Shown here: positions 27,454-46,573 of the stretch, piece by piece
Numbering within the stretch: the first letter of the stretch is position 1
Layout of the letters: every line of letters starts with the position of its first letter
Origin: Dehalococcoidia bacterium
GTDB lineage: Bacteria; Chloroflexota; Dehalococcoidia; UBA6926
Reading direction: 5' to 3'
Assembly: GCA_965214725.1 (NCBI GenBank)
Contig: OZ243973.1
Span: 1,468,079 to 1,532,078, forward strand
DNA length: 64,000 bases
Program-made: the position numbers and the translations under genes
Notes under the pieces: generated by a model
The model's database searches: none
Seen by the model: only the letters and a program-made list of their open reading frames with translations
Told to the model about the DNA's origin: nothing

Positions 27454-27457
27454 CCAT

Positions 27458-28177: not shown

Positions 28178-29628
28178 ACAGCGTCCGGTCCCGCCTCGCG
28201 CCGCTTGGCTCATCCCGAGCGGCCATCCTGGCGATTGTCTGCTTAAGCGTCTTCTCGACGGCGCTTGATCAGACGGTGGTGTTGGCGGCGCTGCCGACAG
28301 TCATGCTGGACCTCAAGCTCTCACTCTCTGACCTTGATACGGCCGCCTGGATCGTCACCGGGTATCTGATTGGCTACACGGTGGTCATGCCGCTTGCGGG
28401 GCGGCTGTCAGACATCCATGGCCGCGTGAGGGTGTTCCAGGCCGCGCTGCTCATCTTTGCGATTGGCTCCGCATTCGTCGCTGTCGCACCCAATTTCGGC
28501 TGGATTGTTGCCGCCCGTGTCGTACAGGCCATCGGCGGTGGCGCAACGCTGCCGATTGGGCTGGCAATGGCCATGGCGGTGGTTGCGCCCGGGCAGCGGG
28601 GCATGGCGCTCGGACTGGTGGCCGCATCGGCGGAGGCGGGCGCCGTTCTCGGCCCGATCTACGGAGGAGCGTTGATTGAGTGGGTGGGCTGGCGGCTCAT
28701 CTTCTGGCTGGACATCCCGCAGAGCCTGCTGCTCATCGCCGTGCTGGCCATTCTCCGGAATCACGCCACGCCCGGGGCGCGTATGGACTACGCAGGCACG
28801 GCGCTGCTTGGCGCGACGCTCACCGTTGTGACAATCGGCCTATCACAACGCGCGATTTTCTCATTGGATTCCGCCTTCCCCTACATCATGCTCGCGCTGG
28901 GCGCCGTGTTGGCCATCGCATTCGTCTTCATTGAGCGACGTTCAGCGCAGCCCCTCATCGCCCCCTTTCTCTACAAATCGGGAGCCTTTGTGTCTGCCAA
29001 CATGACCCAACTGATGGCGGGGATGTCTCTCATCATTGCGCTGGTCGGCGTCCCGCTTATGGCCAATACAATCATGGAGAAAGGGGACTGGGAGAGCGCC
29101 CTGCACCTGGCACGACTGATGGTGGCCATTCCGGTGGGCGCGGCGGTGGGCGGATATATCCTGCGGTGGACGCCCGCCCGTCCCATAGTCATAACGGGAT
29201 TGGTCCTTATCGGAATCGGACTGCTGTTTATGAGCGGGTGGGAGAGAGATGTTGACGAGCTCCGGTTAACCGCGCCCCTCTTGATGGCCGGGCTCGGTTT
29301 CGGGCTCATCTTGCCGCCAATCAGCGTCACAGCCCTCAGCGCCGCGCCAAGCGACTACTGGGGCACGGCCGCGTCATTGGTCACCGCTGCGCGAATGGTC
29401 GGCATGGCCATTGGGCTTGCCGCGCTCTCCGCCTGGGGCATTGAGCGGTTCTATAACCTGACGGCGGGCATGTCGATTGGGCCGTCATTGGACGAGGCGG
29501 AGGGGGCGCTTATCGGGGCAGGGGTGAGTGTCTTTCAAGACCTGTTCATGATTGCCGGACTCATCTCGCTTCTCGCCATTCTGCCCGCCTTGTTCATGAG
29601 GATGGAGCCTGTAACCGCCGACTCTTAG
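28174..29628 (+). CDS. MFS transporter, 14-TM DHA2-like (P55-like efflux pump).
   Basis: 484 aa and hydrophobic throughout. MFS motif region around GRLSDIHGRVRVF. The GTG start overlaps the lipoprotein stop (GTGA at 28174-28177). Confidence 0.7.
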   Translation: MNSVRSRLAPLGSSRAAILAIVCLSVFSTALDQTVVLAALPTVMLDLKLSLSDLDTAAWIVTGYLIGYTVVMPLAGRLSDIHGRVRVFQAALLIFAIGSAFVAVAPNFGWIVAARVVQAIGGGATLPIGLAMAMAVVAPGQRGMALGLVAASAEAGAVLGPIYGGALIEWVGWRLIFWLDIPQSLLLIAVLAILRNHATPGARMDYAGTALLGATLTVVTIGLSQRAIFSLDSAFPYIMLALGAVLAIAFVFIERRSAQPLIAPFLYKSGAFVSANMTQLMAGMSLIIALVGVPLMANTIMEKGDWESALHLARLMVAIPVGAAVGGYILRWTPARPIVITGLVLIGIGLLFMSGWERDVDELRLTAPLLMAGLGFGLILPPISVTALSAAPSDYWGTAASLVTAARMVGMAIGLAALSAWGIERFYNLTAGMSIGPSLDEAEGALIGAGVSVFQDLFMIAGLISLLAILPALFMRMEPVTADS

Positions 29629-33291: not shown

Positions 33292-33597
33292 CCCGTGATC
33301 GTGCCGGGCTGCCGTCCACGCCCGGGATCACGCGGTACATCGCCGAGCGCGATCGTGTTTGAGGTGACGATCTCGTGCAATGACCGTGCGAATCCAGATT
33401 TGCTCAGCTTGGTATAATAAATTGAACAATGTTTTGAACCATGTTCGAAACAGGGAGCGCGGAAGACAGACATGCTCGTCGGCAAGACGACAGTCCGGAT
33501 TGGAGACCACATAGGGGACAAGCCCACCTAGGAGATAATTGGCATGCACCAAGAGCATACCGCCCACTCCAACTCTTGGAGACTCGGCACGAGAAGC

Positions 33598-36500
33598 ATG
33601 AATGGTTTCAGCTGGAGACTCTCCGTGGTCACGCTGGCCGTCTTGGCCCTGGTGATCACGGCGTCAGCCGGGCTGTGGCTGGTTAACCCGCCACAGGACG
33701 CTGCCGCGCAAACCGCGCTGCCGGAACTCAAGATCGCCGCCGCCACTGCCACCGTGGCCGAGGGCGGCGAGCTGAGATTCACCATCTCCGCCAGCGATCC
33801 GACGCTGGACCGCGACCTCACCGTGAACCTGCAGGTCACCGAGGACACCAGTCAGGGCCGAACCTACCTCGCCGCCTCGGAGCGCGGCTCCAAACGGGCC
33901 GTCCTCTACGCCGGCATGGAGACCGGAACCTTCACGGTCAAAACCGTCGACGACAATAACGACGAGCACGACGGCGCTGTTACCGTGACGCTGCGCCCCG
34001 GGAACGGCTACACCGTGGGCGCCACCAACGCCGCCACCGGCACGGTGACCGACAAAGACGGCACCCATGTGACTCTGACTATTGGCAAAAGCATTATTCC
34101 GGAGAACGGCGGCAAGACCGACATCACGTACCGACTCCGGGGGCCGCTGAAAGCGGGTCAAACCATCGCGTTCAAGGCTGGGACCGGACGTGATTCTAAT
34201 GGAAGACAAGGCGTCGACTGGACCCTCCAGAAGAAGCCGGGCGCCGACAACACTGGCGTGACGCTATCCGCCAGCGGGACTGTCAACGGGGTTACCGCCA
34301 CCGCGCGGAACCCGATTGTGACCATGACCGGCGCCGGCGTACGGGAAGCCAAGCTCGAGCTGACCGCCGTTGACGATACTGCGACCAGCAATCGGCGAAT
34401 CACTTGGTTTGTTGGCAGTAACGGTGGCATCAGCAACATCTTTGTGCAGACCCTCGGTGGCGCCCAGGGTAGCTTCAGGGTCAGCGGGCGCAATCACATC
34501 TATCTCATAGACGACGATAACCCTCCCGCACCCGTAATCGGCTTTTCGAGAAATGCTTTCAGCGGCAACGAGAATGGGGGCCTTGTTCAGCCGGTTGTCA
34601 ACTTTTCCAGAGTCGCCACGCCGGAATTCGAGCTGCCGCTGACCTTCACTGCCGGCACTGCAACGGAAGGCGCGGACTACCATGAGCCTGGTCCGCAAAT
34701 TGTAGATCTGTCAAGCAGTTCTAGTACTGGATTGAGTTTTGACATCCACCTAATCGATGACAAGCATAAGGAGGGCGCCGAAACCCTCACGGTCGCCATC
34801 GACATGGACGCCCTGCCGGACCTCAATGGCAATAGCGAAGGCAATGGCTGGGTTGCCGGGGATCACACGACCGCAACCATCACCATCAATGATAACGACA
34901 GCGATGTTCACGCCTCGATCAGCGCCCTCGATAACATCGCAACCGAGGGCAGCTCCAGCGACAAGGCCACCTTCCGAGTCAGCCTCGACTCCGTGCGGGG
35001 CGCGGCGGGACCGTTGACCGACGGCGACAGCGCCAGGATCAACTTTGCCTTCCTCGGCGGCGCTCATGGTAAGGACTTCGATGTCAATCTGTTGACCAAC
35101 CACCCCACGCTGTCATCCGACGGCGCTTCCGTGAAATTCAACCCCAACGCCGTCAGTCCGGCGCAGGACACGCCACTATTCGCCGACTTCGAGTTGATCG
35201 CCCGGCAGGACCTGGACGCCATCGACGATCTGGTGAGGGTGCAGCTGGCCGTAATCGTGGCCGGCGCCGGCACTCCCACGGGCTCGGCGAGCGGCGAAGC
35301 CCGCATCACCCTGCGGGACGATGACCAGAAAGCGACGGGTCTGCGCATGCGCGGAGAGCTGGATGGTCCCATTGCTGACGACGACGGCGCTTTCAGGATC
35401 GGCGAGGGCAGCGGCGAAACCTTGGTGTTCGGCCTTACGCAGGCGCCAACTGCTGCCGTGAACGCGGATGCGTCCATCATCTCCGGCAGCCACGCTGCCT
35501 CCATCACGTCCGGCGCCACCAACCAGGTGGTGGTGGGCAATAGCTTCTGCTACTCGCGCTGTCCCTGGCGAGTGTGGTTCGACTACAACTACGGCGATCC
35601 GCAGAACAGTACATTGAACGGGTATCGGATTGACATCGCCGGCACGGAGGACATCGCCACCGTGCTCACCGACGACGTGACGCTGCGGATCGCCCTCCGC
35701 TCGGCCGACAAGAACTACGACGGCGCCGTGTATGAATACCCCATCAAGGTGATTGACAACGATCAGCCCATCAGCGTGGAGCTCGTGAGCACCAGCGCGG
35801 TCGACCTGCCGGAAAGCCGCAACGGCCGCATCAGGCTGGGGGTGCGGGCATCGCGTCCGGTTCACACCGGGTTGACGCCGCAGCTGACCTGGCCCGACCC
35901 GTCGGACACCGGCCACTTCACCCCGGCCCAGGACATCGACATCGCCGTGGAACCGATACCGGTGGGCGGCGACATGGCTTACATCTACCTCGACTCCAAC
36001 GACGACAACGTCGCTGAGGCGGAAGCGTCAGCAACGGCTACCATGTCCCTGGAGGAAACGGTTGCAGGCGTAACCGTGGACCAGACGCGCAACACCTTCC
36101 TGCTCCGGCACAGCGATGATGACAATCTGAACATCCGGCTGATCAAACGCTACGCCTCGGACAACACAGTCAGCTACGCGGTGTACTTCACCCGTCCGGT
36201 GGACTATGCCATTGAGCTGGTCCTGAAGGGCAAGAACAGCAACAATGACCGCATCCTGGGCATGCCCAGCACGGTGACTCAGAATAACCCCAACCTCACC
36301 AGCCCGCACGAGTACACCATCTTCGATCCGGATCGGTACACTGCCATCATCGCGCGCACCCTAGGGGACTACACGTTCTTCGACAGCCAGGCCATCGTGG
36401 TGTCCGACGGTATTCAGCTGATCGACCACGATGACCCGGTTCCGACGACAGGTCCCCCACTGATGGCGCAAAGCAGCGAGGTGTCGCCACAGGGCACGGT

Positions 36501-37479
36501 GCGTGATTCCCTGACATCAGGCATGGGCAACGGCGGCGGCAGCCTCAATGACCGGGTAAACGCGATCAGCGTGTCCAACCTAACGGCAGACGGGTTCACC
36601 CTGGGATGGTCAGCAGCCAACGGCGCTGACAGCTACCGGGTGCGCTACTGGCAGGACGAAGACGCGGTGAGCGTCTTCCCCGTCACGGGTACGACCCACA
36701 CGGTAACCGGCCTGGATCCGGAGACGGAGTACTCGGTGCAGATCATGGCGGTGGTCAACGGCAACGTGGTCACGAGCAAGTCGAGTTCAGTGTTCACCGT
36801 AACCACTGCCGCTGCTGCTGCACCGGCGCCGACGGCCACGCCCACGCCAATACCCACAGCAACACCCACGCCGGCGCCAATACCTACGGCAACACCGACA
36901 CCGGCGCCGCTCACATCGGCGCCTCCTACGGCAACACCGGCGCCGCAAGTCTGCAATCTGCCCTCGGACGCCATCACGGTGGCCGAGGTAACCGGCTGGC
37001 GGGACGCCCTCGACCCCATCAAGGCGGCCGCGGGCGTCAAACGCTGGAACCGGGTGCTGGCCACGCTGGGCGAGGACACGGGCGCTGCGCCGATGCCGGC
37101 GGAGCTGGCCCGGCAGGTCGCCAACTGGCTCGGCAACACCCGCTGGGATCGCACAGCCCGCACCCTAGAGGCTATGGCGCAGTGCGACAACCCTTTGCCC
37201 ACACCCGCGGCAGCGCCGACGCCGACGCCGCAGGCCTGCACTCTGCCGGCTGACGCCATCACGGTGGCCGAGGTAACCGGCTGGCGGGACGCCCTCGACC
37301 CCATCAAGGCGGCCCCGGGCATCAAACGCTGGAACCGGGTGCTGGCCACGCTGGGTGAGGACACTGGCCTTACGCCGATGCCGGCGGAGCTGGCCTGGGA
37401 GGTCGCCAACTGGCTCGGGAATACCCGCTGGGACCGCACGGCGCGCACGCTGGAGGCTATGGCGCAGTGCGACAACTGA
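33598..37479 (+). CDS. Secreted multidomain protein. From N to C: Calx-beta-like domains, an FN3 domain, a Pro/Thr/Ala linker, and a tandemly duplicated ~80-aa Cys-bounded domain.
   Basis: Signal-peptide-like N-terminus MNGFSWRLSVVTLAVLALVITASAGLW, with the ATG at 33598. The FN3-like segment is VSNLTADGFTLGWSAANGADSYRVRYWQ...TEYSVQIMAV. The linker is ATPTPIPTATPTPAP. The duplicated domain runs from C(N/T)LP to AMAQCDN. Confidence 0.75.
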   Translation: MNGFSWRLSVVTLAVLALVITASAGLWLVNPPQDAAAQTALPELKIAAATATVAEGGELRFTISASDPTLDRDLTVNLQVTEDTSQGRTYLAASERGSKRAVLYAGMETGTFTVKTVDDNNDEHDGAVTVTLRPGNGYTVGATNAATGTVTDKDGTHVTLTIGKSIIPENGGKTDITYRLRGPLKAGQTIAFKAGTGRDSNGRQGVDWTLQKKPGADNTGVTLSASGTVNGVTATARNPIVTMTGAGVREAKLELTAVDDTATSNRRITWFVGSNGGISNIFVQTLGGAQGSFRVSGRNHIYLIDDDNPPAPVIGFSRNAFSGNENGGLVQPVVNFSRVATPEFELPLTFTAGTATEGADYHEPGPQIVDLSSSSSTGLSFDIHLIDDKHKEGAETLTVAIDMDALPDLNGNSEGNGWVAGDHTTATITINDNDSDVHASISALDNIATEGSSSDKATFRVSLDSVRGAAGPLTDGDSARINFAFLGGAHGKDFDVNLLTNHPTLSSDGASVKFNPNAVSPAQDTPLFADFELIARQDLDAIDDLVRVQLAVIVAGAGTPTGSASGEARITLRDDDQKATGLRMRGELDGPIADDDGAFRIGEGSGETLVFGLTQAPTAAVNADASIISGSHAASITSGATNQVVVGNSFCYSRCPWRVWFDYNYGDPQNSTLNGYRIDIAGTEDIATVLTDDVTLRIALRSADKNYDGAVYEYPIKVIDNDQPISVELVSTSAVDLPESRNGRIRLGVRASRPVHTGLTPQLTWPDPSDTGHFTPAQDIDIAVEPIPVGGDMAYIYLDSNDDNVAEAEASATATMSLEETVAGVTVDQTRNTFLLRHSDDDNLNIRLIKRYASDNTVSYAVYFTRPVDYAIELVLKGKNSNNDRILGMPSTVTQNNPNLTSPHEYTIFDPDRYTAIIARTLGDYTFFDSQAIVVSDGIQLIDHDDPVPTTGPPLMAQSSEVSPQGTVRDSLTSGMGNGGGSLNDRVNAISVSNLTADGFTLGWSAANGADSYRVRYWQDEDAVSVFPVTGTTHTVTGLDPETEYSVQIMAVVNGNVVTSKSSSVFTVTTAAAAAPAPTATPTPIPTATPTPAPIPTATPTPAPLTSAPPTATPAPQVCNLPSDAITVAEVTGWRDALDPIKAAAGVKRWNRVLATLGEDTGAAPMPAELARQVANWLGNTRWDRTARTLEAMAQCDNPLPTPAAAPTPTPQACTLPADAITVAEVTGWRDALDPIKAAPGIKRWNRVLATLGEDTGLTPMPAELAWEVANWLGNTRWDRTARTLEAMAQCDN
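36952..37476 (+). repeat. Tandem in-frame duplication of 285 nt (95 aa) encoding the C-terminal Cys-bounded domain. Copies are at 36952-37191 and 37237-37476.
   Basis: Copy 1 reads CNLPSDAITVAEVTGWRDALDPIKAAAGVKRWNRVLATLGEDTGAAPMPAELARQVANWLGNTRWDRTARTLEAMAQCDN. Copy 2 reads CTLPADAITVAEVTGWRDALDPIKAAPGIKRWNRVLATLGEDTGLTPMPAELAWEVANWLGNTRWDRTARTLEAMAQCDN. Confidence 0.85.
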
Positions 37480-37996: not shown

Positions 37997-38527
37997 TTAG
38001 CCGCCATAGCCTCCGGCGGGCCGGCCGGCGGTGGCAGCGGCCGCATCACCCTCTGCTGCCTCTGCGCCGGGCGGCTCATCTTCTGGGATCGGTTCCCATT
38101 TCACGAGAGTGACGTCATCCGTCACATCATCAAAGACGGCCTGAACGCGCTGGCCGACGGCAAGCGAGCCAGGGTCCTCCATCAGCTGTTCCTGTGGGAT
38201 GAGGACGTTGCCGGTCATGCGGGCGCCCTCATCAAGCTGAATGGTGGCGTGCACGTACGGCGCCTCCTCCGTGAACGCGGGGAAGGAGGATTGATAGACG
38301 GTTGTGTAGGAATAGACGCGGCCCCTTCCACTCACCCGTGTCCAGACGAGTTTATCTATGGGGGAGAGATCATAGGGGCAGACCTCACGCGGGAAGAAGA
38401 CGAACGTATTGCAGACGGTGCAGTACTGCACCCACAGCTCATGCTTCTTGGCGCCTTCCCAGAACGGTCGTGACACCTCCGGGTTGAGCGTCGCCTTCGG
38501 AAGCGGCTTGTTGTATTCGCTCGTCAT
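37997..38527 (-). CDS. DUF35-family Zn-ribbon/OB-fold protein (thiolase partner subunit).
   Basis: MTSEYNKPLPKATLNPEVSRPFWEGAKKHELWVQYCTVCNTFVFFPREVCPYD. The C-x2-C...C-P Zn-ribbon followed by an OB-fold is typical of DUF35. The ATG is at 38527. Confidence 0.7.
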   Translation of the reverse strand: MTSEYNKPLPKATLNPEVSRPFWEGAKKHELWVQYCTVCNTFVFFPREVCPYDLSPIDKLVWTRVSGRGRVYSYTTVYQSSFPAFTEEAPYVHATIQLDEGARMTGNVLIPQEQLMEDPGSLAVGQRVQAVFDDVTDDVTLVKWEPIPEDEPPGAEAAEGDAAAATAGRPAGGYGG

Positions 38528-38561: not shown

Positions 38562-39719
38562 CTAGAGTGCGTTCTCGGACCCGAGAACCAGCGTGCACAT
38601 GACGCTTGCCATGCCACCGTTACCATTGACGAGTCCCAGGTCATTGCGCTCGATCTGCCTCACACCGGCCTTGCCCATGATCTGGCGGGCTGCCTCAACG
38701 ACGTGACGGAGGCCACCCGCTGAACCGGGCTGTCCGCCGGACAACTGGCCACCGTCCGTGTTGATGGGGAAGGTCCCGTTGTAGGTGGTGTCCGTCTCCG
38801 CAAAGAACGGTCCAATCTCACCCTTCGGCACGATCCCTGCGTCTTCCAGGGAGACTGCATGGATGATTGTGTATGCATCATAGAATTGAGCGAACTGGAT
38901 GTCACTCGGGGCGTAACCGGACATGGCGAGCGCGGTTGGCGCAGAGCGCGCAACCGGCGTGGTGGTGAGCTCCGGTCGCATCATCCCGCTTAAGCCGTCC
39001 ACCGCTGTCGCGCCGCCAAGCATGTAGGCGGGCTTGTTGAGGCTGGCCTTTGCGCGCTCTTTCGTTGTGACAATGACAGCCGCCGCGCCGGCGCACGGCA
39101 TCACACATTCCAGCAAGCGCAGCGGATAATTCACGTAGCGAGAGCTGATAACATCCTCATACGTAATCGGCTGGCCATTGAATACGGCGTTCTCATTGCC
39201 CTGAGCGTTGGCGCGTTCATTCACCGCAATGTGCGCTAACTGCTCTTGCGTTGTGCCGTAGCGATCCATGTGGCGCATGTAGACCTGTGCATAGCCGGAA
39301 TTCGCGCCGGCGGCGGGACCATACGGGAAATCGAACTCGGACGCGGGGCCGTGGGATCCCTCGGGACCATCGGGGATTGCAGGATTACGTGCCTGTCCCA
39401 TGACGACGAGGACGTAGTTTGCGAGGCCGTTCTGGACAGCCATGGAGGCAAGCAAGACAGCGGTCGCGCCGCTGGCGCCCATCATGGAGGTGCCGGTGCC
39501 GAATCGCGGGCGGATTCCAAGGTATTCCGATACGAATCCAGGGAAGATTGCTTCTCCCTCAGTAACCAGCCCGTCTATGTCATCCTTTGAGATGTGCGCA
39601 TCCTCGATGGCGAGACGGGCCGCCTGTGCCAGCAGGCCGCCCGTGCTCAGGCCGCGAACCGTTCGGCGCGACGGGAGCTCGCCGATACCGACAATTGCGG
39701 CTTCTCCTCGGAAACTCAC
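38562..39719 (-). CDS. Thiolase-like protein (SCP-x/nonspecific lipid-transfer-protein-type thiolase).
   Basis: 385 aa. N-terminus MSFRGEAAIVGIGELP. The thiolase fold is conserved to the C-terminus (...GQPGSAGGLRHVVEAARQIMGKAG...). Confidence 0.75.
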   Translation of the reverse strand: MSFRGEAAIVGIGELPSRRTVRGLSTGGLLAQAARLAIEDAHISKDDIDGLVTEGEAIFPGFVSEYLGIRPRFGTGTSMMGASGATAVLLASMAVQNGLANYVLVVMGQARNPAIPDGPEGSHGPASEFDFPYGPAAGANSGYAQVYMRHMDRYGTTQEQLAHIAVNERANAQGNENAVFNGQPITYEDVISSRYVNYPLRLLECVMPCAGAAAVIVTTKERAKASLNKPAYMLGGATAVDGLSGMMRPELTTTPVARSAPTALAMSGYAPSDIQFAQFYDAYTIIHAVSLEDAGIVPKGEIGPFFAETDTTYNGTFPINTDGGQLSGGQPGSAGGLRHVVEAARQIMGKAGVRQIERNDLGLVNGNGGMASVMCTLVLGSENAL

Positions 39720-39758: not shown

Positions 39759-40277
39759 TCAGTTATACCTGGGGTCGTTCGCCCATGGATTCTCGGTCGG
39801 CTCCGACTCCGACCCCGGCACGGGGCCGTCTTCAATCCGCCGCCACTTGATGATTGTCCATTCAGGAGTGACGTCCTCAAAGACAGCCTCGACGCGCTGA
39901 CTCACTAAGAGCAGCGCGGGATCTTCACGGTACTCCTCCGGCGTGACATCGGCCATGTTTCCGATCATTCGAACGCCCTCATCCAGTTCGATAAGGACTT
40001 GTGCCATGGGCATAGCCTCACCAAACGTAGGGACGGCCGGCTGATAGACCGTTGTGTACGAGTGGATGCGGCCCTTGCCGCTTGCCTTCGTCCAGACCAG
40101 GTCATCGCCGTGCCCCCAACATGTGGGACACGCGTCACGCGGATAGAAGATGAAATTGTTGCAGCGCGTGCAGTTCTGGAGCCAGAGTTCATGACGCTTC
40201 GTCCCCGCCCAGAACGTGGAGGTCAACTCCGGGTTCATGGTGGGGCGTGGTACCGGCCTTCTGTATTCGCTCGTCAT
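39759..40277 (-). CDS. DUF35-family Zn-ribbon/OB-fold protein (second copy).
   Basis: MTSEYRRPVPRPTMNPELTSTFWAGTKRHELWLQNCTRCNNFIFYPRDACPTC. It is a paralog of the protein encoded at 37997..38527. Confidence 0.7.
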   Translation of the reverse strand: MTSEYRRPVPRPTMNPELTSTFWAGTKRHELWLQNCTRCNNFIFYPRDACPTCWGHGDDLVWTKASGKGRIHSYTTVYQPAVPTFGEAMPMAQVLIELDEGVRMIGNMADVTPEEYREDPALLLVSQRVEAVFEDVTPEWTIIKWRRIEDGPVPGSESEPTENPWANDPRYN

Positions 40278-40320: not shown

Positions 40321-41478
40321 CTAGAGTGCGTTCTCGGAACCGAGAACCAGCGTGCACATTGTGCTCGCGGTGCCGCCTCAACCATTCACCAGGCCGAGGT
40401 CATTGCGGGCGATCTGTCTCACACCCGCCTTGCCCATGATCTGGCGCGCGCCCTCGATAACGTGTCTGAACCCACCGGCGAGGCCGGGCTGTCCGCTGGA
40501 CAGCTGGCCGCCGTCTGTGTTGATGGGAAACTCGCCGTTGTAGCGCGTATCGGTTGATTCAAAGAACGGCCCAACCTCGCCCTTGGGCATCAACCCCGCA
40601 TCCTCCAGGCACACGGCATGGAGAATGGTGTATCAATCATAGAACTGGGCAAACTGCATGTCCCGCGGCGTGTAGCCGGACATGGTGAACGCCGTGGGCG
40701 CAGACCGCGCGACTGGCGTCTCGGTCAGCTTGTCACGTTGCCAGCCGGTCAAAGGATCGGTCGCGATGCCCGCGCCAAGGACGTACACCGGGCGATTCAG
40801 GCTATGCTTGGCGCGCTCTGCGGTTGTGACAATAACGGCGGCGGCGCCGGCACACGGCATCACCGTTTCAAGCAGCTTGATGGGGTAATTGATAAAACGG
40901 GAATTCATCACATCGTCATGTGTGATGGGCTGCCCCTGGAAGACGGAGTTGGGGTTCTCCAGTGTGTTGAATCGCTCGTTGACGGCTATTTGGGCCATCT
41001 GCTCTTCAGTCGTGCCGTATTCCTCCATGTGTCGGACGTACATCATGCCGTAGCCGGTATTCGCGCCGGCTGCCATACCATACGGTTCCTCAAACTCTGA
41101 CCTCGCGCTGGGAGGCCCGCCACCCTCCGGCGGAATGACCGGGTTGCGCGCCGTGGCAATGACGACGAGCACGTAGTTGGCGAGTCCGTTCTGGACGGCC
41201 ATGGAGGCGAGCGTGACGCCCGTCGCGCCACTGGCGCCCATCATGCTGGCGCCGGTCGCGAATCGTGGGCTGATTCCGAGGTACTCGGACGCAAAGGCCG
41301 GGGACACAGTCCCGCCCTCCGTAACAAGTCCGTCTATATCCGTGAAGCGCAAATGGGCGTCATGGATAGCGATGCGGGCCACGTCACCCATGAGGCCAAC
41401 CATTGAGCGGCCAAACGTGGAGCGGGTCGTCGGCAACTCCCCGATTCCGATGATCGCTGCTTCACCACGAAGACTCAT
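40321..41478 (-). pseudogene. Thiolase-like paralog with two in-frame TGA codons (40633-40635 and 40378-40380). There is no frameshift and the frame ends at a TAG at 40321-40323. It is a probable pseudogene, or a sequence error.
   Basis: The translation runs MSLRGEAAIIGIGELP...QFAQFYD*YTILHAVCLEDAGLMPKGE...LGLVNG*GGTASTMCTLVLGSENAL. It aligns with the intact paralog end to end (...FYDAYTIIHAV... / ...LVNGNGGMASVMCTLVLGSENAL). Confidence 0.6.
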
Positions 41479-41720: not shown

Positions 41721-42191
41721 CTACCCCTCCGCGGGTGGGTTCTCGAAGTGCACCTGCCAGTTGATGCCGAACCGATCCGTGCACGCCCCAAAGTAATCGC
41801 CCCAGAACATATCCTGCTGCTCCATCGTCACCTCACCGCCCGCGGCGAGCGCCGCAAAGACGCGATCCGCCTCCGCGCGGGTCGGCGCCGCGTAGCTGAC
41901 GGAGAAATTGGAGCCGACGCTGAGCGGCGGCCCGAACCCGGGCGGCACATCACTCCCCATGAGAATGCTGTTCCCGATGGACAGTGACACGTGCATGATC
42001 CAGTCCGTCATCTCCGACGGTATCGGCGGCATATCCTCAGAGGGCGGCAGGTCCGCAAAGGTCATCGTGTTGTCGAACTCCCCGCCAAAGACAGCGCGAT
42101 ACGCCTCAAACGCCTCCCGGCACGATCCATCATCAAAATTGATGTAGATAGAGAGCGTAGGAAAGGGCTGCTGCTGGTCCTGGGTTGTCAT
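41721..42191 (-). CDS. VOC (glyoxalase/bleomycin-resistance/PhnB-like) family protein.
   Basis: 156 aa. The pattern ...SIYINFDDG...EAF.FY..VFGGE...MHV.L.IG...LMG.D..P.... matches PhnB-like VOC proteins. Confidence 0.6.
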   Translation of the reverse strand: MTTQDQQQPFPTLSIYINFDDGSCREAFEAYRAVFGGEFDNTMTFADLPPSEDMPPIPSEMTDWIMHVSLSIGNSILMGSDVPPGFGPPLSVGSNFSVSYAAPTRAEADRVFAALAAGGEVTMEQQDMFWGDYFGACTDRFGINWQVHFENPPAEG

Positions 42192-42225
42192 GGTGTTGGG
42201 GGTCTCCTTTCGGTTGTGGGCTTCA

Positions 42226-42241
42226 GGGGGGGGGGGGGGGG
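42226..42241. repeat. Homopolymeric G16 tract (C16 on the minus strand). It lies between the RapA-like gene stop and the VOC gene start.
   Basis: Direct reading: cttca-gggggggggggggggg-tgaggg. Confidence 0.95.
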
Positions 42242-42248
42242 TGAGGGA

Positions 42249-45227
42249 CTATGACCGTTGCTCTTCCTTCACTATATCCGCTGCAGCCAAGAGGACGATA
42301 TCGTTGGGGTGCCGGAACTTGGTGCACTGGTCCGCTAGCTCGGTCTCGGCCGCCACCTGGAGTAGTTGGACGGTTTCCCTACGCTCTGCAGGGTCTCCAG
42401 CCCCCATCGACGGTTGCAGTCCCCGTGCCTCGTTGCCAAGCAACGACCCGAAGAAAGTGGGGCGTGCTTCTGCTTGATCTGACCCGTCCTTGATGAATAC
42501 TGGCAAGACATCGTCTCGGTTAGGTACACCTTGATCGTTTTGCCACCGCAATCGATAAAGGCCAAGCGCGCCGTTATCAGGGCCGCGAATAGATGCGTAT
42601 TCTCCACCGAAGTCCGGGGATTGCGCACACTCAATGATGTCCGTGAAGAAACGGCTCTTGAAATCCATCAGGTGAATGCTGCCGCTGCCCTGAGCTATCT
42701 GTCTATCTGCAGTAATGCGGACGACGGTTGCACCGGCAGGGAAGTCGGAGTACTGCCCGCGCAGGAGGTCCGGTAGCCTAATGACCAGAACCCGACCGTC
42801 GTATTGACTTTCCCTAATCTCGATGCCACGGAAGTATGGGAGCATAATCTCGAGGAAGAGGTGAACATCTTCCTGCGTAAACCTGTGGCTCGCGACAAGA
42901 GAATTTGGATCGTAGCCCTCAATGCTCGAAAATAATATGTCCTGCTGATTCTTTGCCTCGTGGGCTCGCTTTAAGGCTTCCTCAGCGTCCTGTTGAGTAC
43001 GGTCCACAGACATTTCTGAGGCATCAGCCAATATCTTTGCAATGTCAAGCCGTTCCAGTATTTCGCCCAAAATTTCGGTCTTGAGAGCACTCGGGTCGCC
43101 ATATTCACCACTGACCTCTGCCAGATCTTGGGCAATCGAGTCTACTCTCTCTAGCGTTCGCGCAAGAATCTGGTTGTCGAAGCCTTGTGTACTCATCATG
43201 TTGAACACAACAACGCGCTCTGTCTGCCCGTAACGATATAGGCGGCCCGCCCTCTGGATGAGTCGGGCCGGATTCCAAGGAATGTCATAGTTCACCATGA
43301 CGTGGCACTCTCGGTGCAAGTTGATGCCCTCTCCTCCTGCCTCTGTGGAAATGAGGAAGGGACCAGATTCATTGAATTTCGCGATGTTCGCCTTCTTCTC
43401 GTTGAGAGACATGCCTCCGTGAATCTGGAGTATCTCGCGCCCTGGATACGCAATCTTCAGCTGGTCGGCAATGTATTCCTGCGTAGCCCTGTACTCCGTG
43501 AAGACAAGGAGCTTGTCACTGGCTTCCCTGACGGGTTTCACAACCTTCTCCAAGAACAACTGCATCTTAGGGTCCTTCACATTGGCATCTTCCGCCAAAG
43601 CGATTAGGCGCTCCAATTCTTGGGCTTCCCCCTGAAAGAATGGCTGCCCTGCCTTAACCTCGACTCCCACAACATCCGCGAGTGCTTCCAGGTTATCGTT
43701 TCCATCACTCCCATCGATGAAAGCATCTATATTTCCTGTCATGACATCACCCGCATCATCATCAGCTACATCATCATTGATATCGGATTGTTCACCAGTC
43801 TGCAGACGAGCAAGACGTTTCAGCAGGGCCGTCTCGACTGCGGTGATACTAGACGAGGCAAGTTTTCTGTACGTGGTCATAACGAAGCCAACTGCCCGCA
43901 ATCCACCCCCTTCTTCCGCAACCTTATAACCTTTTCTGAGATATTCCTTAAGCTGCTTGTCAAATGTGTCCAATTTGTCCGTGCTGGGGACATCCACCGC
44001 GTGGCTATCTTGGCCACGGAATATGGGCTCTCCGTTCATGTCCGTTGCGGCGCTCTTTCTGTTGCGCAGAACCATCTCTGCGACGACGGAGGGATTCGTA
44101 AAGATCTGTCCCAGTTCTCGGGCGCGGTCTGGGCGCAAAAGCGTCAACATGTTGACAAACTGCGCGTTATCGCCTTGATGCGGAGTTCCTGTAAGAAAAA
44201 TAAAGGAATCTGTGAATTTTCTCACGTGCTGGGCCAGTCGATACCTCTGGGTTGTTTCCCTCCCCGGAACCTTGCTCAGATGATGCGCCTCATCAAAGAT
44301 GATGATGTCCCACTCCCCAGCATCGGCCAATTTCGCGAGGTTCTCATCTGATTTCCCCCGGTCAATCGACACGATAACCTTGTCCTGCCCAAACCAGTGT
44401 GACGGCTGATTTATATTGAAGTCGACTCCGAAAATCCTGAAGTCTTCGTTGAACTTGTAGCTCATCTCATCCTGCCATTGACGGACAACTGCAGCAGGGC
44501 AAACGACCAAGACACGCCTCGCCTGACGTCTGCGACGCAGTGCCGCCAGAAGGAGTCCCACCTCAATTGTCTTCCCCAAGCCAACATCGTCGGCGATGAG
44601 CCAATTCGTCTGGTCGGAAGTCAGAATCCTGTGAACCAGATCGATCTGGTGTGGCAGAGGGTCAACGTCGAGCCGATCAAGGGCTCCTGTAACTTGATTC
44701 CAGGAATCTAACGCGTAAGCGAAAGCTTTTAGCCGAAACCGTTCATGGCTATCGTCCTCGAGTTCGGCACGCACATATCTTGTCTCGGGGCCACGGAGCC
44801 TAACCAGATTCTCAAAGGGTATCCAAGCACTTTCCCCGGTCTTGTGCCATTGTACGAGTACCATATCACGTGCCGCGATGTGCCGTTCCGCTTGAACAAT
44901 TCCAGTGCCCACCGTCCTCCTGATGTTCGACAATGGGCTATCCTGCACAAGATCACCAGGCCTAAAGCCGTTGCGCAACTCCGAAGATTTGTGCCGCGAA
45001 TCAGGAATTGCCAGCCCCCACCTCACTTGAACTTCTTCCCTATTCTCGTCTGTGGCGACGACCTGGCCGCGATGTATCGGCCCTCCAGCTATTCGTTCCG
45101 CATTCAAAGTCACCCAGCAATTCACAGCTGGTATCAATCGATGTGGCGATTCATTTCTGTTCATGCCATCTCTCATACTCATGAAAGTCATCATCTCCAT
45201 ACCATTCAGTAAGCGCTTTCCATTCAT
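42249..45227 (-). CDS. SNF2-family ATPase with a RapA/HepA-like architecture: two N-terminal Tudor-like subdomains followed by the Snf2 ATPase and helicase-C domains. Start is uncertain; Met codons occur at 45227 through 45164.
   Basis: Walker A ADDVGLGKT. DEAH box IIFDEAHHL. Helicase-C motifs around LVFTEYRATQ...IHGGMS...FLISTEAGGEGINL...YDIPWNPARLIQRAGRLYRYGQ. The N-terminal segments VNCWVTLNAERIAGG...VQVRW and FRPGDLV...VLVQW resemble the paired RapA N-terminal domains (GQRWIS..., FNPGDTI...). Confidence 0.7.
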   Translation of the reverse strand: MNGKRLLNGMEMMTFMSMRDGMNRNESPHRLIPAVNCWVTLNAERIAGGPIHRGQVVATDENREEVQVRWGLAIPDSRHKSSELRNGFRPGDLVQDSPLSNIRRTVGTGIVQAERHIAARDMVLVQWHKTGESAWIPFENLVRLRGPETRYVRAELEDDSHERFRLKAFAYALDSWNQVTGALDRLDVDPLPHQIDLVHRILTSDQTNWLIADDVGLGKTIEVGLLLAALRRRRQARRVLVVCPAAVVRQWQDEMSYKFNEDFRIFGVDFNINQPSHWFGQDKVIVSIDRGKSDENLAKLADAGEWDIIIFDEAHHLSKVPGRETTQRYRLAQHVRKFTDSFIFLTGTPHQGDNAQFVNMLTLLRPDRARELGQIFTNPSVVAEMVLRNRKSAATDMNGEPIFRGQDSHAVDVPSTDKLDTFDKQLKEYLRKGYKVAEEGGGLRAVGFVMTTYRKLASSSITAVETALLKRLARLQTGEQSDINDDVADDDAGDVMTGNIDAFIDGSDGNDNLEALADVVGVEVKAGQPFFQGEAQELERLIALAEDANVKDPKMQLFLEKVVKPVREASDKLLVFTEYRATQEYIADQLKIAYPGREILQIHGGMSLNEKKANIAKFNESGPFLISTEAGGEGINLHRECHVMVNYDIPWNPARLIQRAGRLYRYGQTERVVVFNMMSTQGFDNQILARTLERVDSIAQDLAEVSGEYGDPSALKTEILGEILERLDIAKILADASEMSVDRTQQDAEEALKRAHEAKNQQDILFSSIEGYDPNSLVASHRFTQEDVHLFLEIMLPYFRGIEIRESQYDGRVLVIRLPDLLRGQYSDFPAGATVVRITADRQIAQGSGSIHLMDFKSRFFTDIIECAQSPDFGGEYASIRGPDNGALGLYRLRWQNDQGVPNRDDVLPVFIKDGSDQAEARPTFFGSLLGNEARGLQPSMGAGDPAERRETVQLLQVAAETELADQCTKFRHPNDIVLLAAADIVKEEQRS

Positions 45228-46116
45228 CTTGGGTTACCCAGTTGCGCACGTGCCGCATTGCTGTTGTATTCCAGGGTTCTACCCCTTGCCATTCAGCCAT
45301 GTACAAAGCGAATTGGGCTAGTGAAAAGATCCCTCTCTCCATCAAATCTTGTGGCAACTTGTACCGCCAATCCTCAATCCAGCTTTCCTCAATGACATCT
45401 TCTGGAGCACAGTCAATTCGCAGTTTTGCGAGTTCCAAAGCCATCTCCCTGGACATTGTATGCCGCTGATGCCGCTCAATCCACCTGCCTTTGCCCCTGG
45501 GTATCCGCACTGCCCAGAGTTCCCAATTCGCGTCCCAATACGCTTGGAACCGCAAGAATGCCAGCAGTACACGCCCATCCCAGTTCTGGCTCCTTAGCCA
45601 AGGGAACCAACTGCCGAATCGAGCGGGCACTAGCCATCTGGTCCAGACGGCCACCTCTTCCCTTTCCTCCGCCGAAATATCCCGAAGACTATCCTGAAGA
45701 CTGGCAAGCCATTCATCCACCTGAAGCGTCCGCTTGATAGAAACGTCGTTTTCGGGTAAAACGAATATGGGGCGAGTTAGAGTGCCCTCATAATCGGCTC
45801 CGTCGAGATCCGGATACTCAACCCACTCTTCAAAGGGCGCCTCGATGGGCTCTTCAGCATCGAGCAATTTGTTCTCGACAAATGCAACGTAGGCATCCGG
45901 TTCAGAGGGCCCCAATTCTTCAGGCGCGCCTTCGGCCGTGATTGCTTCAGCGTCCGGTTCAGCAATATCATCTGGCAGTTCGACGGGCAGTGAATCAAGC
46001 TTGGGCTGACTAGTTTGCTCGTTCCCAAGCTTGACTTCAATCTGCTGACTGGAAGCAAAGACAAAGTCCTCATCAATCCATCCGTCAGAGTCACCAAAGG
46101 GTTGCTGCTGGATCAT
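45151..46116 (-). CDS. Hypothetical acidic, Trp-rich protein. Its 3' end overlaps the start of the RapA-like gene.
   Basis: 321 aa. D/E-rich N-terminal half. C-terminal half rich in W/R (WLVPARFGSWFPWLRSQNWDGR...WIEDWRYKLPQD...EWQGVEPWN). An AGAGGG RBS lies 9 nt upstream of the ATG at 46116. No family was recognised. Confidence 0.5.
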   Translation of the reverse strand: MIQQQPFGDSDGWIDEDFVFASSQQIEVKLGNEQTSQPKLDSLPVELPDDIAEPDAEAITAEGAPEELGPSEPDAYVAFVENKLLDAEEPIEAPFEEWVEYPDLDGADYEGTLTRPIFVLPENDVSIKRTLQVDEWLASLQDSLRDISAEEREEVAVWTRWLVPARFGSWFPWLRSQNWDGRVLLAFLRFQAYWDANWELWAVRIPRGKGRWIERHQRHTMSREMALELAKLRIDCAPEDVIEESWIEDWRYKLPQDLMERGIFSLAQFALYMAEWQGVEPWNTTAMRHVRNWVTQDEWKALTEWYGDDDFHEYERWHEQK

Positions 46117-46144
46117 TCGGGGTGCCCTCTAGCTGTGCGTTAGG

Positions 46145-46150
46145 ATTATG
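46145..46150 (-). promoter_or_regulatory. Candidate -10 element (CATAAT on the minus strand) within a short AT-rich patch upstream of the 321-aa gene.
   Basis: An AT-rich island (gcacatatattctgagatttacac) in otherwise GC-rich DNA. CATAAT lies about 30 nt upstream of the ATG. Confidence 0.2.
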
Positions 46151-46171
46151 CTAGCACATATATTCTGAGAT

Positions 46172-46573
46172 TTACACCCGCCCTGCGCCCTCTGCTGCGC
46201 ACTCCTCGTCTTGTTCTCCTGTGCCGCCGCCTACGCCTACGGCGCCGATGACCTCGCCGTCTTTCTCGATGGGCACTGCGCCTAGGTCCAGGATCATGTG
46301 GTCGCCCTCGCCCGCCTTGATGCCCTGGAAGATTGGCCTGTCCGCCATCGCCTGAAAGACACCGCTCGGGCGCTTGAACGCCGCGGATGCGATGGCCTTG
46401 CCGTGCGAGCCGTACACGCCCGCCCAGATCGCGTCATCCATCCTCGCGAACGCGACGAGCCGGCCGCCCGCGTCAACGACGGCGATGCTCATCTTCGTTC
46501 CCTGCTCATTCGCTTTCTCGATGGCGCCCTCGATGACCCTGTTCGCCTCCTCCAACGTGATTGCGCGTGCCAT
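46172..46573 (-). CDS. GlcG/DUF336-family (putative heme-binding) protein.
   Basis: 133 aa: MARAITLEEANRVIEGAIEKANEQGTKMSIAVVDAGGRLVAFARMDDA...GVGGGTGEQDE. GGAGG lies upstream of the ATG at 46573. The longer ORF-track version (to 47488) runs antisense through surE and is rejected. Confidence 0.6.
   Translation of the reverse strand: MARAITLEEANRVIEGAIEKANEQGTKMSIAVVDAGGRLVAFARMDDAIWAGVYGSHGKAIASAAFKRPSGVFQAMADRPIFQGIKAGEGDHMILDLGAVPIEKDGEVIGAVGVGGGTGEQDEECAAEGAGRV

What the first reader, a model, noticed from the sequence alone, without database searches (positions are those of the whole stretch)
40321..41478. Second thiolase paralog interrupted only by two in-frame TGA codons
The 1.16-kb frame has no indels relative to its intact paralog and retains conserved motifs to the very end (...MCTLVLGSENAL-TAG). 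Two TGA codons (minus-strand codons at 40633-40635 and 40378-40380) fall at positions that are Ala and Asn in the paralog. Other genes in the window terminate with TGA, so TGA is a stop in this genome. Options: a young pseudogene; a sequencing or assembly error in a paralogous region; or, least likely, programmed read-through. The downstream DUF35 partner is intact.
Basis: seen in the sequence. Interest (0 to 1): 0.5.

Follow-up and report, generated by a model that had tools for sequence, protein, structure and literature searches.

The report
Two-selenocysteine thiolase-fold aldolase gene
The "broken" thiolase gene is most likely intact: its two in-frame TGA codons are conserved across about 100 related marine Dehalococcoidia genes and probably encode selenocysteine in the active site, which would make it a selenoprotein family missing from current catalogues.

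Summary
The minus-strand ORF 41478..40321 has exactly two in-frame TGA codons, at codons 282 and 367.

The pseudogene and sequencing-error readings are refuted:
- All 76 related loci from other Dehalococcoidia/SAR202 genomes carry TGA at codon 367. It is followed by exactly 18 conserved codons and a TAA or TAG terminator.
- Codon 282 alternates between TGA (36 genes) and Cys codons (41 genes), with at least 6 independent switches.
- Both downstream segments evolve as coding sequence.
- TGA is otherwise the commonest stop codon in the window.

Evidence for selenocysteine:
- Codon 282 is the essential catalytic Cys of the YDCY motif of the closest solved homologue, the retro-aldolase CtSal (PDB 9MYR).
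- A hairpin 17 nt after UGA282 is kept, with compensatory changes, only in the TGA-bearing genes.
- Genomes holding close orthologues also carry a known selenoprotein type, an Ogt/MGMT gene with TGA at its active-site Cys.
- Codon 367 lies two residues before the oxyanion-hole glycine and has almost no Cys counterpart (1 of 150 representatives).

The "intact" paralogue (Ala282/Asn367) is the derived form that lost both selenocysteines. No thiolase-fold family appears in a 2026 catalogue of 119 prokaryotic selenoprotein families or has a model of its own in NCBIfam. The Sec machinery was not seen directly.

The parts
40321..41478 (-). Gene A. A Sal-like protein of the thiolase superfamily that lacks the thiolase nucleophile: 385 codons plus a TAG terminator, with predicted Sec at positions 282 and 367.
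   Evidence: E = 1.9e-77 to PDB 9MYR (CtSal). Pfam Thiolase_C_1.
40633..40635 (-). UGA codon 282, predicted Sec, in the motif F-Y-D-U-Y. It corresponds to the catalytic Cys304 of CtSal and to the Cys of the HDCF motif of SCP2-thiolases.
   Evidence: Across 77 orthologues the codon is TGA in 36, TGC in 35 and TGT in 6. At least 6 independent switches.
40599..40627 (-). SECIS-like hairpin after UGA282: CAUUCUCCA(U)GC-CGUGU-GC(C)UGGAGGAUG. The apical loop starts 17 nt after the UGA. 11 bp plus one mismatch, -13.2 kcal/mol.
   Evidence: 81% of cells are paired, against 38-47% in slid registers. Pair 16-30 swaps between CG, GC and GU. Pairs 15-31 and 16-30 are 94-100% paired in TGA genes and 23-30% in Cys genes.
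40378..40380 (-). UGA codon 367, predicted Sec, in the motif V-N-G-U-G-G. It lies two residues before Gly369, which corresponds to the oxyanion-hole Gly391 of CtSal.
   Evidence: TGA in 95 of 102 family genes in the loci held; Asn in the other 7.
40346..40371 (-). Hairpin 1 after UGA367: CCGCG(A)GCAC-AAU-GUGC(A)CGC(U)GG. The apex is 19-25 nt from the U of the UGA.
   Evidence: 66 of 73 distinct sequences form at least 7 pairs here, in three different sequence solutions. The loop has no G in the window's own version.
40330..40347 (-). Hairpin 2 after UGA367: GUUCUCG-GUUC-CGAGAAC. 7 bp, with the loop G[G/U]UC starting 37 nt after the UGA.
   Evidence: 95-100% paired. Pair 36-49 is UA in 41, CG in 28 and UG in 4 sequences, never CA. 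It fits the bSECIS consensus, but it also occurs in Asn367 genes, so its role is uncertain.
40321..40323 (-). True terminator TAG, 18 codons after UGA367.
   Evidence: The terminator is TAA or TAG in 77 of 77 orthologues and never TGA.
39759..40277 (-). DUF35 partner 1: a four-Cys zinc ribbon plus an OB fold. It ends in TGA.
38562..39719 (-). Paralogue B, the derived form without Sec (Y-D-A-Y and N-G-N-G-G). It is predicted to be catalytically inactive as an aldolase.
   Evidence: The CtSal C304A variant is inactive (PMC12329534).
37997..38527 (-). DUF35 partner 2, probably starting at MTSEYNKPLP. Its zinc ribbon has only three Cys (C..C...CPYD).

Best explanation
Gene A is a functional selenoprotein gene, not a pseudogene. 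Both in-frame UGA codons are read as selenocysteine by the bacterial SelB/tRNA-Sec system, guided by stem-loops just downstream of each UGA. The product is a 385-residue thiolase-fold enzyme of the Sal/SCP2-like branch that works with a DUF35 zinc-ribbon/OB partner.

It is not a thiolase, because Gly replaces the nucleophilic Cys and Gln replaces the GHP histidine. It keeps the whole catalytic set of the retro-aldolase CtSal:
- Tyr280 corresponds to Tyr302.
- Residue 282 corresponds to the essential catalytic Cys304.
- Gln325 and Gln330 correspond to Gln347 and Gln352.
- Gly369 corresponds to the oxyanion-hole Gly391.

The likely reaction is therefore cleavage or formation of a C-C bond in a beta-hydroxyacyl-CoA. 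Sec282 would do the proton transfer to the acyl-CoA enolate that Cys304 does in CtSal. Sec367 sits in the same active-site turn, at the position that by inference corresponds to the CxG cysteine of classical thiolases. It probably pairs with residue 282 as a selenolate/selenol relay or a reversible Se-S or Se-Se bond.

Shown: conservation of the UGAs, coding constraint downstream, the Cys/UGA alternation, the hairpins, and the homology. Inferred: Sec identity, the role of Sec367, the substrate, and the inactivity of paralogue B.
For: 1. Conservation of the UGAs. TGA at codon 367 occurs in all 76 related loci plus the window. It is always followed by 18 conserved codons and a TAA or TAG terminator. 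Across 102 family genes the codon is TGA in 95 and AAC in 7. Public gene calls are truncated accordingly: 108 of the 120 closest database proteins end before residue 367, and 11 of those end at FYD, residue 281.

2. Cys/UGA alternation at codon 282. The codon is TGA in 36 genes and TGC or TGT in 41. A neighbour-joining tree requires at least 6 independent switches. The closest Sec/Cys pair of proteins is 98.2% identical.

3. Both downstream segments are translated. pN/pS is 0.157 between the two UGAs and 0.354 after UGA367. Entropy by codon position in the tail is 0.41, 0.26 and 0.82, and jumps to 1.78 just after the terminator.

4. UGA is not generally reassigned. 15 of 29 window ORFs end in TGA, including housekeeping genes.

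5. The hairpin after UGA282 is specific to the TGA genes.
- Pairs 15-31 and 16-30 are 94-100% paired in TGA genes and 23-30% paired in Cys genes.
- 81.3% of cells are paired, against 38-47% in slid registers. The covariation score is 0.152 against 0.076 for shuffles, and 0 of 500 shuffles reach it.
- Synonymous-shuffle z-scores are -0.62 for TGA genes and +0.27 for Cys genes, p = 1.4e-4.
- L021 (Sec) folds at -13.1 kcal/mol, against -8.7 for L020 (Cys).

6. An independent selenoprotein in the same lineage. 16 loci from the same MAGs that hold 89-96% identical orthologues carry an Ogt/MGMT gene with TGA at the Cys of PCHRV. A GGGCGC-GGACG-GCGCCC hairpin follows it, with the loop starting 17 nt after the UGA. 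The protein scores 116 bits against TIGR00589. This family is listed as a predicted selenoprotein in PMC13188914.

7. Literature on the lineage. Dehalococcoidia MAGs are among the bacteria richest in selenoproteins, with 46-49 each (PMC13326102).

8. Active-site mapping. Codon 282 aligns with Cys304 of CtSal. The C304A, C304S and C304H variants are inactive (PMC12329534).
Against: - No selA, selB, selD or tRNA-Sec was seen in the window or in the 1.4 Mb of related loci held. The machinery is therefore inferred only from the Sec-type MGMT gene and from the literature.
- Codon 367 has no Cys counterpart. Relatives carry Asn, Thr, Ser, Gln or hydrophobic residues there, and only 1 of 150 representatives has Cys. 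This is unusual for a Sec site.
- The hairpins after UGA367 are not clearly Sec-specific. Hairpin 1 has no G in its loop in the window's own version. Hairpin 2 sits at the 37-nt limit of the consensus and also occurs in Asn367 genes.
- Only 11-31% of the UGA282 hairpins pass a strict reading of the bSECIS consensus.
- Whole-sequence folding z-scores for the window alone are unremarkable, at -0.21 and -1.31.
- Rfam finds no SECIS family here.
- There is no protein-level evidence.
Confidence: 0.85

Rival explanations
1. A young pseudogene: two recent nonsense mutations inactivated one copy of a duplicated thiolase gene.
For: There are two premature stops and an uninterrupted paralogue next door. 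UGA is a normal stop codon in this genome.
Against: The same two TGA positions are present in dozens of genomes at 60-96% identity. No frameshifts occur, the 18-codon tail is kept exactly, and pN/pS after each TGA is 0.16-0.35. In most relatives the second paralogue also carries both TGAs.
Confidence: 0.02
2. A sequencing or assembly error in a paralogous region.
For: None beyond the fact that the region is duplicated.
Against: Independent assemblies all show the same TGAs. These include chromosome-level MAGs and short-read NODE_ and k141_ contigs from different projects. Many independent gene calls in public databases are truncated at the same two points.
Confidence: 0.01
3. Site-specific read-through of UGA by an ordinary near-cognate tRNA (Trp, Cys or Arg) without selenocysteine. 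Alternatively, UGA367 acts as a leaky or true stop, giving a 366-residue product alongside a full-length one.
For: Codon 367 has no Cys counterpart in relatives. The hairpins after UGA367 are not clearly Sec-specific. The Sec machinery was not observed directly.
Against: The Cys/UGA alternation at a catalytic Cys is the classical signature of Sec. The hairpin after UGA282 has the geometry of the lineage's Sec-type MGMT SECIS and is kept only when the codon is UGA. A 366-residue product would lack the last predicted beta-strand (370-380 in a low-confidence model), which also aligns with the C-terminus of CtSal. The tail is under purifying selection.
Confidence: 0.1
4. Genome-wide reassignment of UGA to a sense codon, as in Mycoplasma, SR1 or Gracilibacteria.
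For: In-frame UGAs occur in a conserved gene.
Against: 15 of 29 ORFs in the window end in TGA at normal lengths, including LeuRS, CysRS, IspD, IspF, GatB and RpoD. The window is about 60% G+C.
Confidence: 0.01

Closest known systems
[quoted passage not shown]
   Same: It is the best solved homologue, with E = 1.9e-77 over residues 1-379. It shares Gly at the thiolase nucleophile position, the Y-D-C-Y motif with catalytic Tyr and Cys, both Gln residues that activate the Cys, the oxyanion-hole Gly, and a DUF35 partner.
   Different: Here the catalytic Cys is encoded by UGA (Sec). A second UGA replaces Thr389. The DUF35 protein stands alone and is not fused to a hydratase. The only conserved neighbour is DUF35, and no steroid-degradation cluster is present. 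The substrate is unknown.
SCP2-type thiolases with the HDCF motif, and the trypanosomal thiolase-like protein TbSLP with YDCF (PDB 6HSJ, 5AB4)
   Same: The acid/base cysteine sits in the loop that replaces the NEAF fingerprint (PMC7682436, PMC12329534). Codon 282 is at that residue.
   Different: SCP2-thiolases keep the nucleophilic Cys and the GHP His. This protein has Gly and Gln at those positions, so it is not a thiolase.
TcLtp2-ChsH2(DUF35) steroid aldolase (PDB 6OK1)
   Same: A thiolase-fold aldolase with a DUF35 partner (E = 1.3e-34).
   Different: Ltp2 uses a pair of Tyr residues and a YDHF motif. This protein is of the Tyr/Cys (Sal) type.
Predicted selenoprotein form of methylated-DNA-protein-cysteine methyltransferase (Ogt/MGMT), listed in the 2026 catalogue PMC13188914
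   Same: Sec replaces a catalytic Cys in an enzyme that is not an oxidoreductase. It occurs in the same Dehalococcoidia genomes, and its SECIS loop starts at the same 17-nt distance from the UGA as the hairpin after UGA282.
   Different: An unrelated fold with a single Sec.
Thiolase-like protein of Sphaerobacter thermophilus (PDB 4U4E)
   Same: The second-best solved homologue (E = 8.6e-65). It also lacks the nucleophilic Cys.
   Different: It has Ser at position 282 and Thr at position 367, and no Sec.

Membership tests
Bacterial selenoprotein gene (Sec-UGA plus bSECIS) | In-frame UGA conserved among orthologues, with a conserved and selected reading frame downstream | tested here: met
   Codon 367 is TGA in 77 of 77 orthologues. 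pN/pS is 0.157 and 0.354 after the two UGAs.
Bacterial selenoprotein gene (Sec-UGA plus bSECIS) | Homologues with Cys at the UGA position | tested here: inconclusive
   Met at codon 282: 41 Cys against 36 TGA, with at least 6 switches. Not met at codon 367: Asn, Thr, Ser, Gln or hydrophobic residues, and Cys in 1 of 150 representatives.
Bacterial selenoprotein gene (Sec-UGA plus bSECIS) | Stem-loop downstream with a 3-9 nt loop, G in the first two loop positions, 16-37 nt spacing from the UGA, and energy of -7.5 kcal/mol or lower (consensus as given in PMC13188914) | tested here: inconclusive
   The window's UGA282 hairpin meets it if one internal mismatch is allowed: -13.2 kcal/mol, 17-nt spacing, loop CGUGU. 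It shows covariation and is specific to TGA genes. For UGA367, hairpin 2 meets it at the 37-nt limit in 79-84% of genes, but hairpin 2 is also found in Asn367 genes.
Bacterial selenoprotein gene (Sec-UGA plus bSECIS) | selA, selB, selC (tRNA-Sec) and selD in the same genome | not testable with these tools
   None were found in the 64-kb window or in the 1.4 Mb of loci held. Indirect support: a Sec-type MGMT gene in genomes holding close orthologues, and the literature (PMC13326102, PMC5649159).
Bacterial selenoprotein gene (Sec-UGA plus bSECIS) | Selenium shown in the protein | not testable with these tools
   Needs 75Se labelling or mass spectrometry.
Sal-type beta-hydroxyacyl-CoA retro-aldolase (thiolase superfamily) | YDCY motif with catalytic Tyr and Cys; Gly at the thiolase nucleophile position; two Gln residues next to the Cys; oxyanion-hole Gly | tested here: met
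   Y280, U/C282, G81, Q325, Q330 and G369 are present in every one of the 120 closest homologues that reaches the position. Position 282 is encoded as Sec here.
Sal-type beta-hydroxyacyl-CoA retro-aldolase (thiolase superfamily) | DUF35 partner protein | tested here: met
   The partner is standalone and is not fused to a hydratase as in CtShy.
Sal-type beta-hydroxyacyl-CoA retro-aldolase (thiolase superfamily) | Retro-aldol activity on hydroxylated acyl-CoA (bile-acid side chains in CtSal) | not testable with these tools
   No steroid-degradation context is conserved.
True thiolase (acetyl-CoA acetyltransferase), as publicly annotated | Nucleophilic Cys of the CxS fingerprint and His of the GHP fingerprint | tested here: not met
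   Gly81 and Gln330 occupy these positions. Every NCBIfam hit scores below its cut-off; the best is 269 bits against a cut-off of 421.
Pseudogene | Lineage-restricted disabling mutations, frameshifts, and relaxed selection downstream | tested here: not met

The most novel reading that the evidence does not exclude
This is the first selenoenzyme of the thiolase fold. It belongs to a family widespread in marine SAR202/Dehalococcoidia in which selenocysteine occupies both alternative acid/base positions of the superfamily, the HDCF/YDCY loop and the CxG turn. That would give a Cys-Sec or Sec-Sec catalytic pair. Sec367 has no cysteine counterpart in any relative, so it may confer chemistry that the sulfur enzymes lack. 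Possibilities are a selenium nucleophile standing in for the missing Cys89, or a diselenide redox gate on C-C bond cleavage of recalcitrant organic matter.
Probability: 0.3. Interest if true: 0.85.

Novelty: new variant of a known kind. Interest (0 to 1): 0.68.

Why it matters
- **Mis-annotation.** Hundreds of public gene models for this family are truncated at 366 or 281 residues and named 'thiolase family protein' or 'acetyl-CoA acetyltransferase'. They are probably neither truncated nor thiolases.
- **Scope of selenoproteins.** If selenium incorporation is confirmed, the family adds a C-C lyase of the thiolase fold to a selenoproteome dominated by thiol oxidoreductases. It would be a rare case of two Sec residues in one active site, one of them with no Cys homologue. 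That makes the question of what selenium does that sulfur cannot directly testable with U-to-C and U-to-N variants.
- **Ecology.** The gene is multi-copy in Dehalococcoidia/SAR202 genomes from marine and sponge samples. SAR202 is regarded, from general knowledge, as an important degrader of refractory dissolved organic matter. The family could therefore tie selenium availability to that carbon turnover.
- **Method.** A neighbouring 'intact' paralogue can be the degenerate copy rather than the reference.

Tried and rejected
- **Rfam.** A scan of 37.5-42.5 kb at E up to 10 found only the tRNA and noise, and no SECIS family.
- **tRNA-Sec.** ARAGORN found none in the window or in L001-L076.
- **SelD and SelA.** This does not bear on whole genomes.
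- **Screen for other UGA/Cys pairs.** The screen across the loci was swamped by wrong-frame conservation in high-G+C DNA. After a codon-usage filter it gave one convincing extra case, the Sec-type MGMT gene.
- **Alignment to a classical thiolase.** The equivalence of U367 with the CxG cysteine therefore stays an inference, drawn through Gly391 of CtSal.
- **Structure prediction.** The AlphaFold2 model of paralogue B, built from a 13-sequence alignment, had a mean pLDDT of 57.7. It was used only for secondary structure and not for a fold search. The tool gives no coordinates, so the distance between residues 282 and 367 could not be measured.
- **Hairpin 2 as a Sec-specific element.** Rejected, because the hairpin also occurs in Asn367 genes.
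- **Degenerate DUF35-2 zinc ribbon as a sign of decay of module B.** Rejected, because the three-Cys ribbon is also present where paralogue B keeps both Sec codons.
- **Gene neighbourhood.** It gave no conserved pathway beyond DUF35.
Full report
**1. The observation**

On the minus strand, 41478..40321 translates to 385 codons plus a TAG terminator, with exactly two internal stops. Both are TGA: codon 282 (40635-40633) and codon 367 (40380-40378).

The layout on the minus strand is:
- gene A, 41478-40321;
- a DUF35 gene, 40277-39759;
- paralogue B, 39719-38562, which is 71% identical and has Ala282 and Asn367;
- a second DUF35 gene, about 38527-37997;
- tRNA-Ala.

TGA is also the commonest stop codon in the window, ending 15 of 29 long ORFs. 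These include LeuRS, CysRS, IspD, IspF, GatB, RpoD and the DUF35 partner itself. UGA is therefore not generally reassigned.

**2. The two TGAs are conserved, not accidental**

*Database proteins.* Of the 120 closest proteins in a homologue search, 108 stop before residue 367. Most of these end at '...VNG', about 366 residues long, and 11 end at '...FYD', 281 residues long. All come from Chloroflexota, Dehalococcoidia or SAR202.

*DNA of 76 related loci.* These came from GTDB species-representative genomes.
- Every locus has TGA at the codon equivalent to 367.
- That TGA is always followed by exactly 18 conserved codons (GG-T/Y/S-A/V/M/G-S-...-LVLGSE..L).
- The terminator is always TAA or TAG and never TGA.
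- Codon 282 is TGA in 36 genes, TGC in 35 and TGT in 6.

*All family copies in those loci.* Counting all 102 copies, codon 367 is TGA in 95 and AAC in 7. Those 7 are paralogue B of the window and of its six closest relatives. In the other relatives, paralogue B carries both TGAs as well. The 'intact' paralogue is therefore the derived copy.

*Selection.* Mean pN/pS is 0.157 for the 84 codons between the TGAs and 0.354 for the 18 codons after TGA367. It is 0.333 for the 60 codons upstream. Entropy by codon position in the tail is 0.41, 0.26 and 0.82, and rises to 1.78 immediately after the terminator. Both downstream segments are therefore translated.

This excludes a young pseudogene and a sequencing error.

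**3. Why selenocysteine**

*The Cys/UGA alternation.* At codon 282 it requires at least 6 independent switches on a neighbour-joining tree. The closest Sec/Cys pair of proteins, L021 and L020, is 98.2% identical.

*The hairpin after UGA282.* It starts 6-8 nt after the UGA, and its 5-nt loop (CGUGU in the window) begins 17 nt after the UGA. In the window it has 11 bp plus one mismatch, at -13.2 kcal/mol.
- Across the TGA-bearing genes, the core pairs 14-32, 15-31, 16-30, 19-27 and 20-26 are 94-100% paired. Pair 16-30 swaps between CG, GC and GU.
- In the Cys-bearing genes, pairs 15-31 and 16-30 are paired in only 23-30%.
- The pair-counting tool gives 81.3% paired against 38-47% in slid registers. 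The covariation score is 0.152 against 0.076 for shuffles, and 0 of 500 shuffles reach it.
- z-scores against synonymous-codon shuffles differ between the groups: -0.62 against +0.27, p = 1.4e-4, not corrected for phylogeny.
- In the near-identical pair, two synonymous Leu-codon differences make the stem continuous only in the TGA gene: -13.1 against -8.7 kcal/mol.

*An independent selenoprotein in the lineage.* A codon-usage-filtered screen for other UGA sites turned up an Ogt/MGMT gene in 16 loci. These loci come from the same MAGs that hold the 89-96% identical orthologues. The gene has TGA exactly at the active-site Cys of PCHRV. With Cys substituted for the TGA it scores 116 bits against TIGR00589. 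It is followed by GGGCGC-GGACG-GCGCCC, whose loop starts 17 nt after the UGA. That is the same distance as the hairpin after UGA282. Sec-type MGMT is a listed predicted selenoprotein family (PMC13188914, Table 1).

*Literature on the lineage.* Dehalococcoidia MAGs, including one from what looks like the same UUID-named project, are reported among the bacteria richest in selenoproteins, with 46-49 each (PMC13326102). SelA and SelB are reported as enriched in sponge-symbiont bins (PMC5649159).

**4. The weaker points**

- *Sec machinery.* No sel genes or tRNA-Sec lie in the window or in the 1.4 Mb of loci held. That sample is far too small to be informative.
- *Hairpin 1 after UGA367.* Its apex is 19-25 nt from the U of the UGA. 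66 of 73 distinct sequences form at least 7 pairs there, in three different sequence solutions. The loop of the window's version contains no G.
- *Hairpin 2 after UGA367.* It has 7 bp that are 95-100% paired, with pair 36-49 as UA in 41, CG in 28 and UG in 4 sequences, and never CA. Its loop G[G/U]UC fits the published bSECIS consensus, but only at the 37-nt limit of spacing. Hairpin 2 also occurs in Asn367 genes, including a 54%-identical homologue. It cannot be claimed as Sec-specific.
- *No Cys counterpart at codon 367.* Among 150 representatives clustered at 50% identity, the residue is Asn in 29, Thr in 14, Ser in 10, Gln in 10 and Phe in 10, with other residues in smaller numbers, and Cys in only 1.
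- *Overall weighting.* I rate Sec at position 282 as very likely and Sec at position 367 as likely.

**5. What the protein is**

The closest solved structure is 9MYR (E = 1.9e-77). This is CtSal, the bile-acid side-chain retro-aldolase, solved in complex with a DUF35 domain (PMC12329534). In CtSal:
- Tyr302 and Cys304 of the YDCY motif are the catalytic residues;
- the C304A, C304S and C304H variants are inactive;
- Gln347 and Gln352 contact the thiolate;
- Gly391 N and Gln161 form the oxyanion hole;
- Gly89 replaces the thiolase nucleophile.

The ungapped alignment maps these residues as follows:

| CtSal | Gene A |
|---|---|
| Tyr302 | Y280 |
| Cys304 | U282 |
| Gln347 | Q325 |
| Gln352 | Q330 |
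| Thr389 | U367 |
| Gly391 | G369 |
| Gly89 | G81 |

All of these positions are invariant in the subfamily. [quoted passage not shown] It is therefore not a thiolase, whatever the public names say. NCBIfam has no model that it passes.

[quoted passage not shown] Codon 367 is two residues before the oxyanion-hole glycine, at the turn between the last two predicted strands (361-368 and 370-380 in a low-confidence model). In classical thiolases the oxyanion-hole glycine is the G of CxG. By position, U367 therefore corresponds to the CxG cysteine.

As I recall Harijan et al. 2013 (cited in PMC7682436, not read here), the HDCF cysteine is spatially equivalent to the CxG cysteine. If so, residues 282 and 367 should lie side by side. 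This step is an inference and was not verified by superposition.

A plausible mechanism is a retro-aldol or aldol reaction in which Tyr280 handles the beta-hydroxyl and Sec282 handles the alpha-carbon proton. Sec367 would act as a partner, either as a proton relay or through a reversible Se-S or Se-Se bond that protects or gates the site.

Paralogue B (YDAY, NGNGG) should be catalytically inactive by analogy with the C304A variant. It may serve as a structural partner.

The only conserved neighbour of the Sec-type genes is DUF35, so the substrate is unknown.

**6. Novelty**

- A 2026 catalogue of 119 prokaryotic selenoprotein families and subfamilies contains no family of the thiolase fold.
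- NCBIfam release 20 has no dedicated model.
- Full-text searches pairing selenocysteine or selenoprotein with thiolase terms found nothing relevant.
- Public gene calls are truncated and named 'thiolase family protein' or 'acetyl-CoA acetyltransferase'.

The recoding mechanism and the enzyme fold are both known. The combination is not: a selenoenzyme of the thiolase fold with one or two Sec residues in the active site, one of which has no Cys counterpart. Absence from the literature held here is not proof of absence.

**7. Verdict**

The finding is real. Confidence that gene A is a functional, recoded gene is about 0.95. Confidence that both UGAs encode Sec is about 0.8-0.85.

Noticed in passing
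window 141..24776 (+): A single giant ORF of 8,211 codons that ends in TGA. It is made largely of Calx-beta repeats with AlgX, Ig and LapA-like stretches, and shows a strong AT skew of +0.21 to +0.30 over 22 kb. It is probably a giant adhesin, which would fit a host-associated (sponge) Dehalococcoidia. A second Calx-beta/fn3 protein of 1,311 aa lies at 33544..37479.
   Followed up: partly
L033 6988..7590 (+), and the equivalent positions in L029-L046: An Ogt/MGMT gene with TGA at the active-site Cys (P-U-HRV). It is followed by a GGGCGC-GGACG-GCGCCC hairpin that begins after an 11-nt spacer, with its loop starting 17 nt after the UGA. It is conserved in 16 genomes, about 2.6 kb upstream of their second thiolase-like copy. 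Public gene calls probably truncate it at 137 aa.
   Followed up: yes
window 40330..40347 (-), the same position in paralogue B (about 38571..38588), and L077: A 7-8 bp hairpin over the codons for V-L-G-S-E-N, just before the terminator. It is kept with covariation in Sec-type genes. It is also present in genes without Sec, through different codon and amino-acid solutions, so its function is unexplained and not obviously linked to Sec insertion.
   Followed up: partly
window 37997..38527 (-); L001-L025 at about 12930-12980: The second DUF35 protein has a three-Cys zinc ribbon (C..C...CPYD or CPYG) in place of the usual four Cys. This is conserved whether or not paralogue B keeps its Sec codons. 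It recalls the Cys3His1 variant described for CtShy.
   Followed up: partly
window about 42000..46200: A stretch of lower G+C (0.53 against about 0.61). It holds a 992-aa SNF2/ResIII helicase (42249..45227, minus strand) and a 321-aa ORF with no Pfam match (45151..46116, minus strand). It may be an acquired island or a defence-related insertion next to the thiolase-like operon.
   Followed up: no
window 24982..29628 (+): An MMPL/sterol-sensing-domain transporter, an LppX/LprAFG-like lipoprotein and an MFS transporter in a row. This cluster has the look of lipid export.
   Followed up: no
L029-L046, about 3.3-3.4 kb into each locus: A conserved TGA lies between '...PVPGAVPRGWLRN' and 'GNTVRSRRVYLGALILMALFLTLG...', with coding-like sequence on both sides, in about 17 genomes. 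It could be two adjacent genes in one frame or another recoded gene.
   Followed up: no
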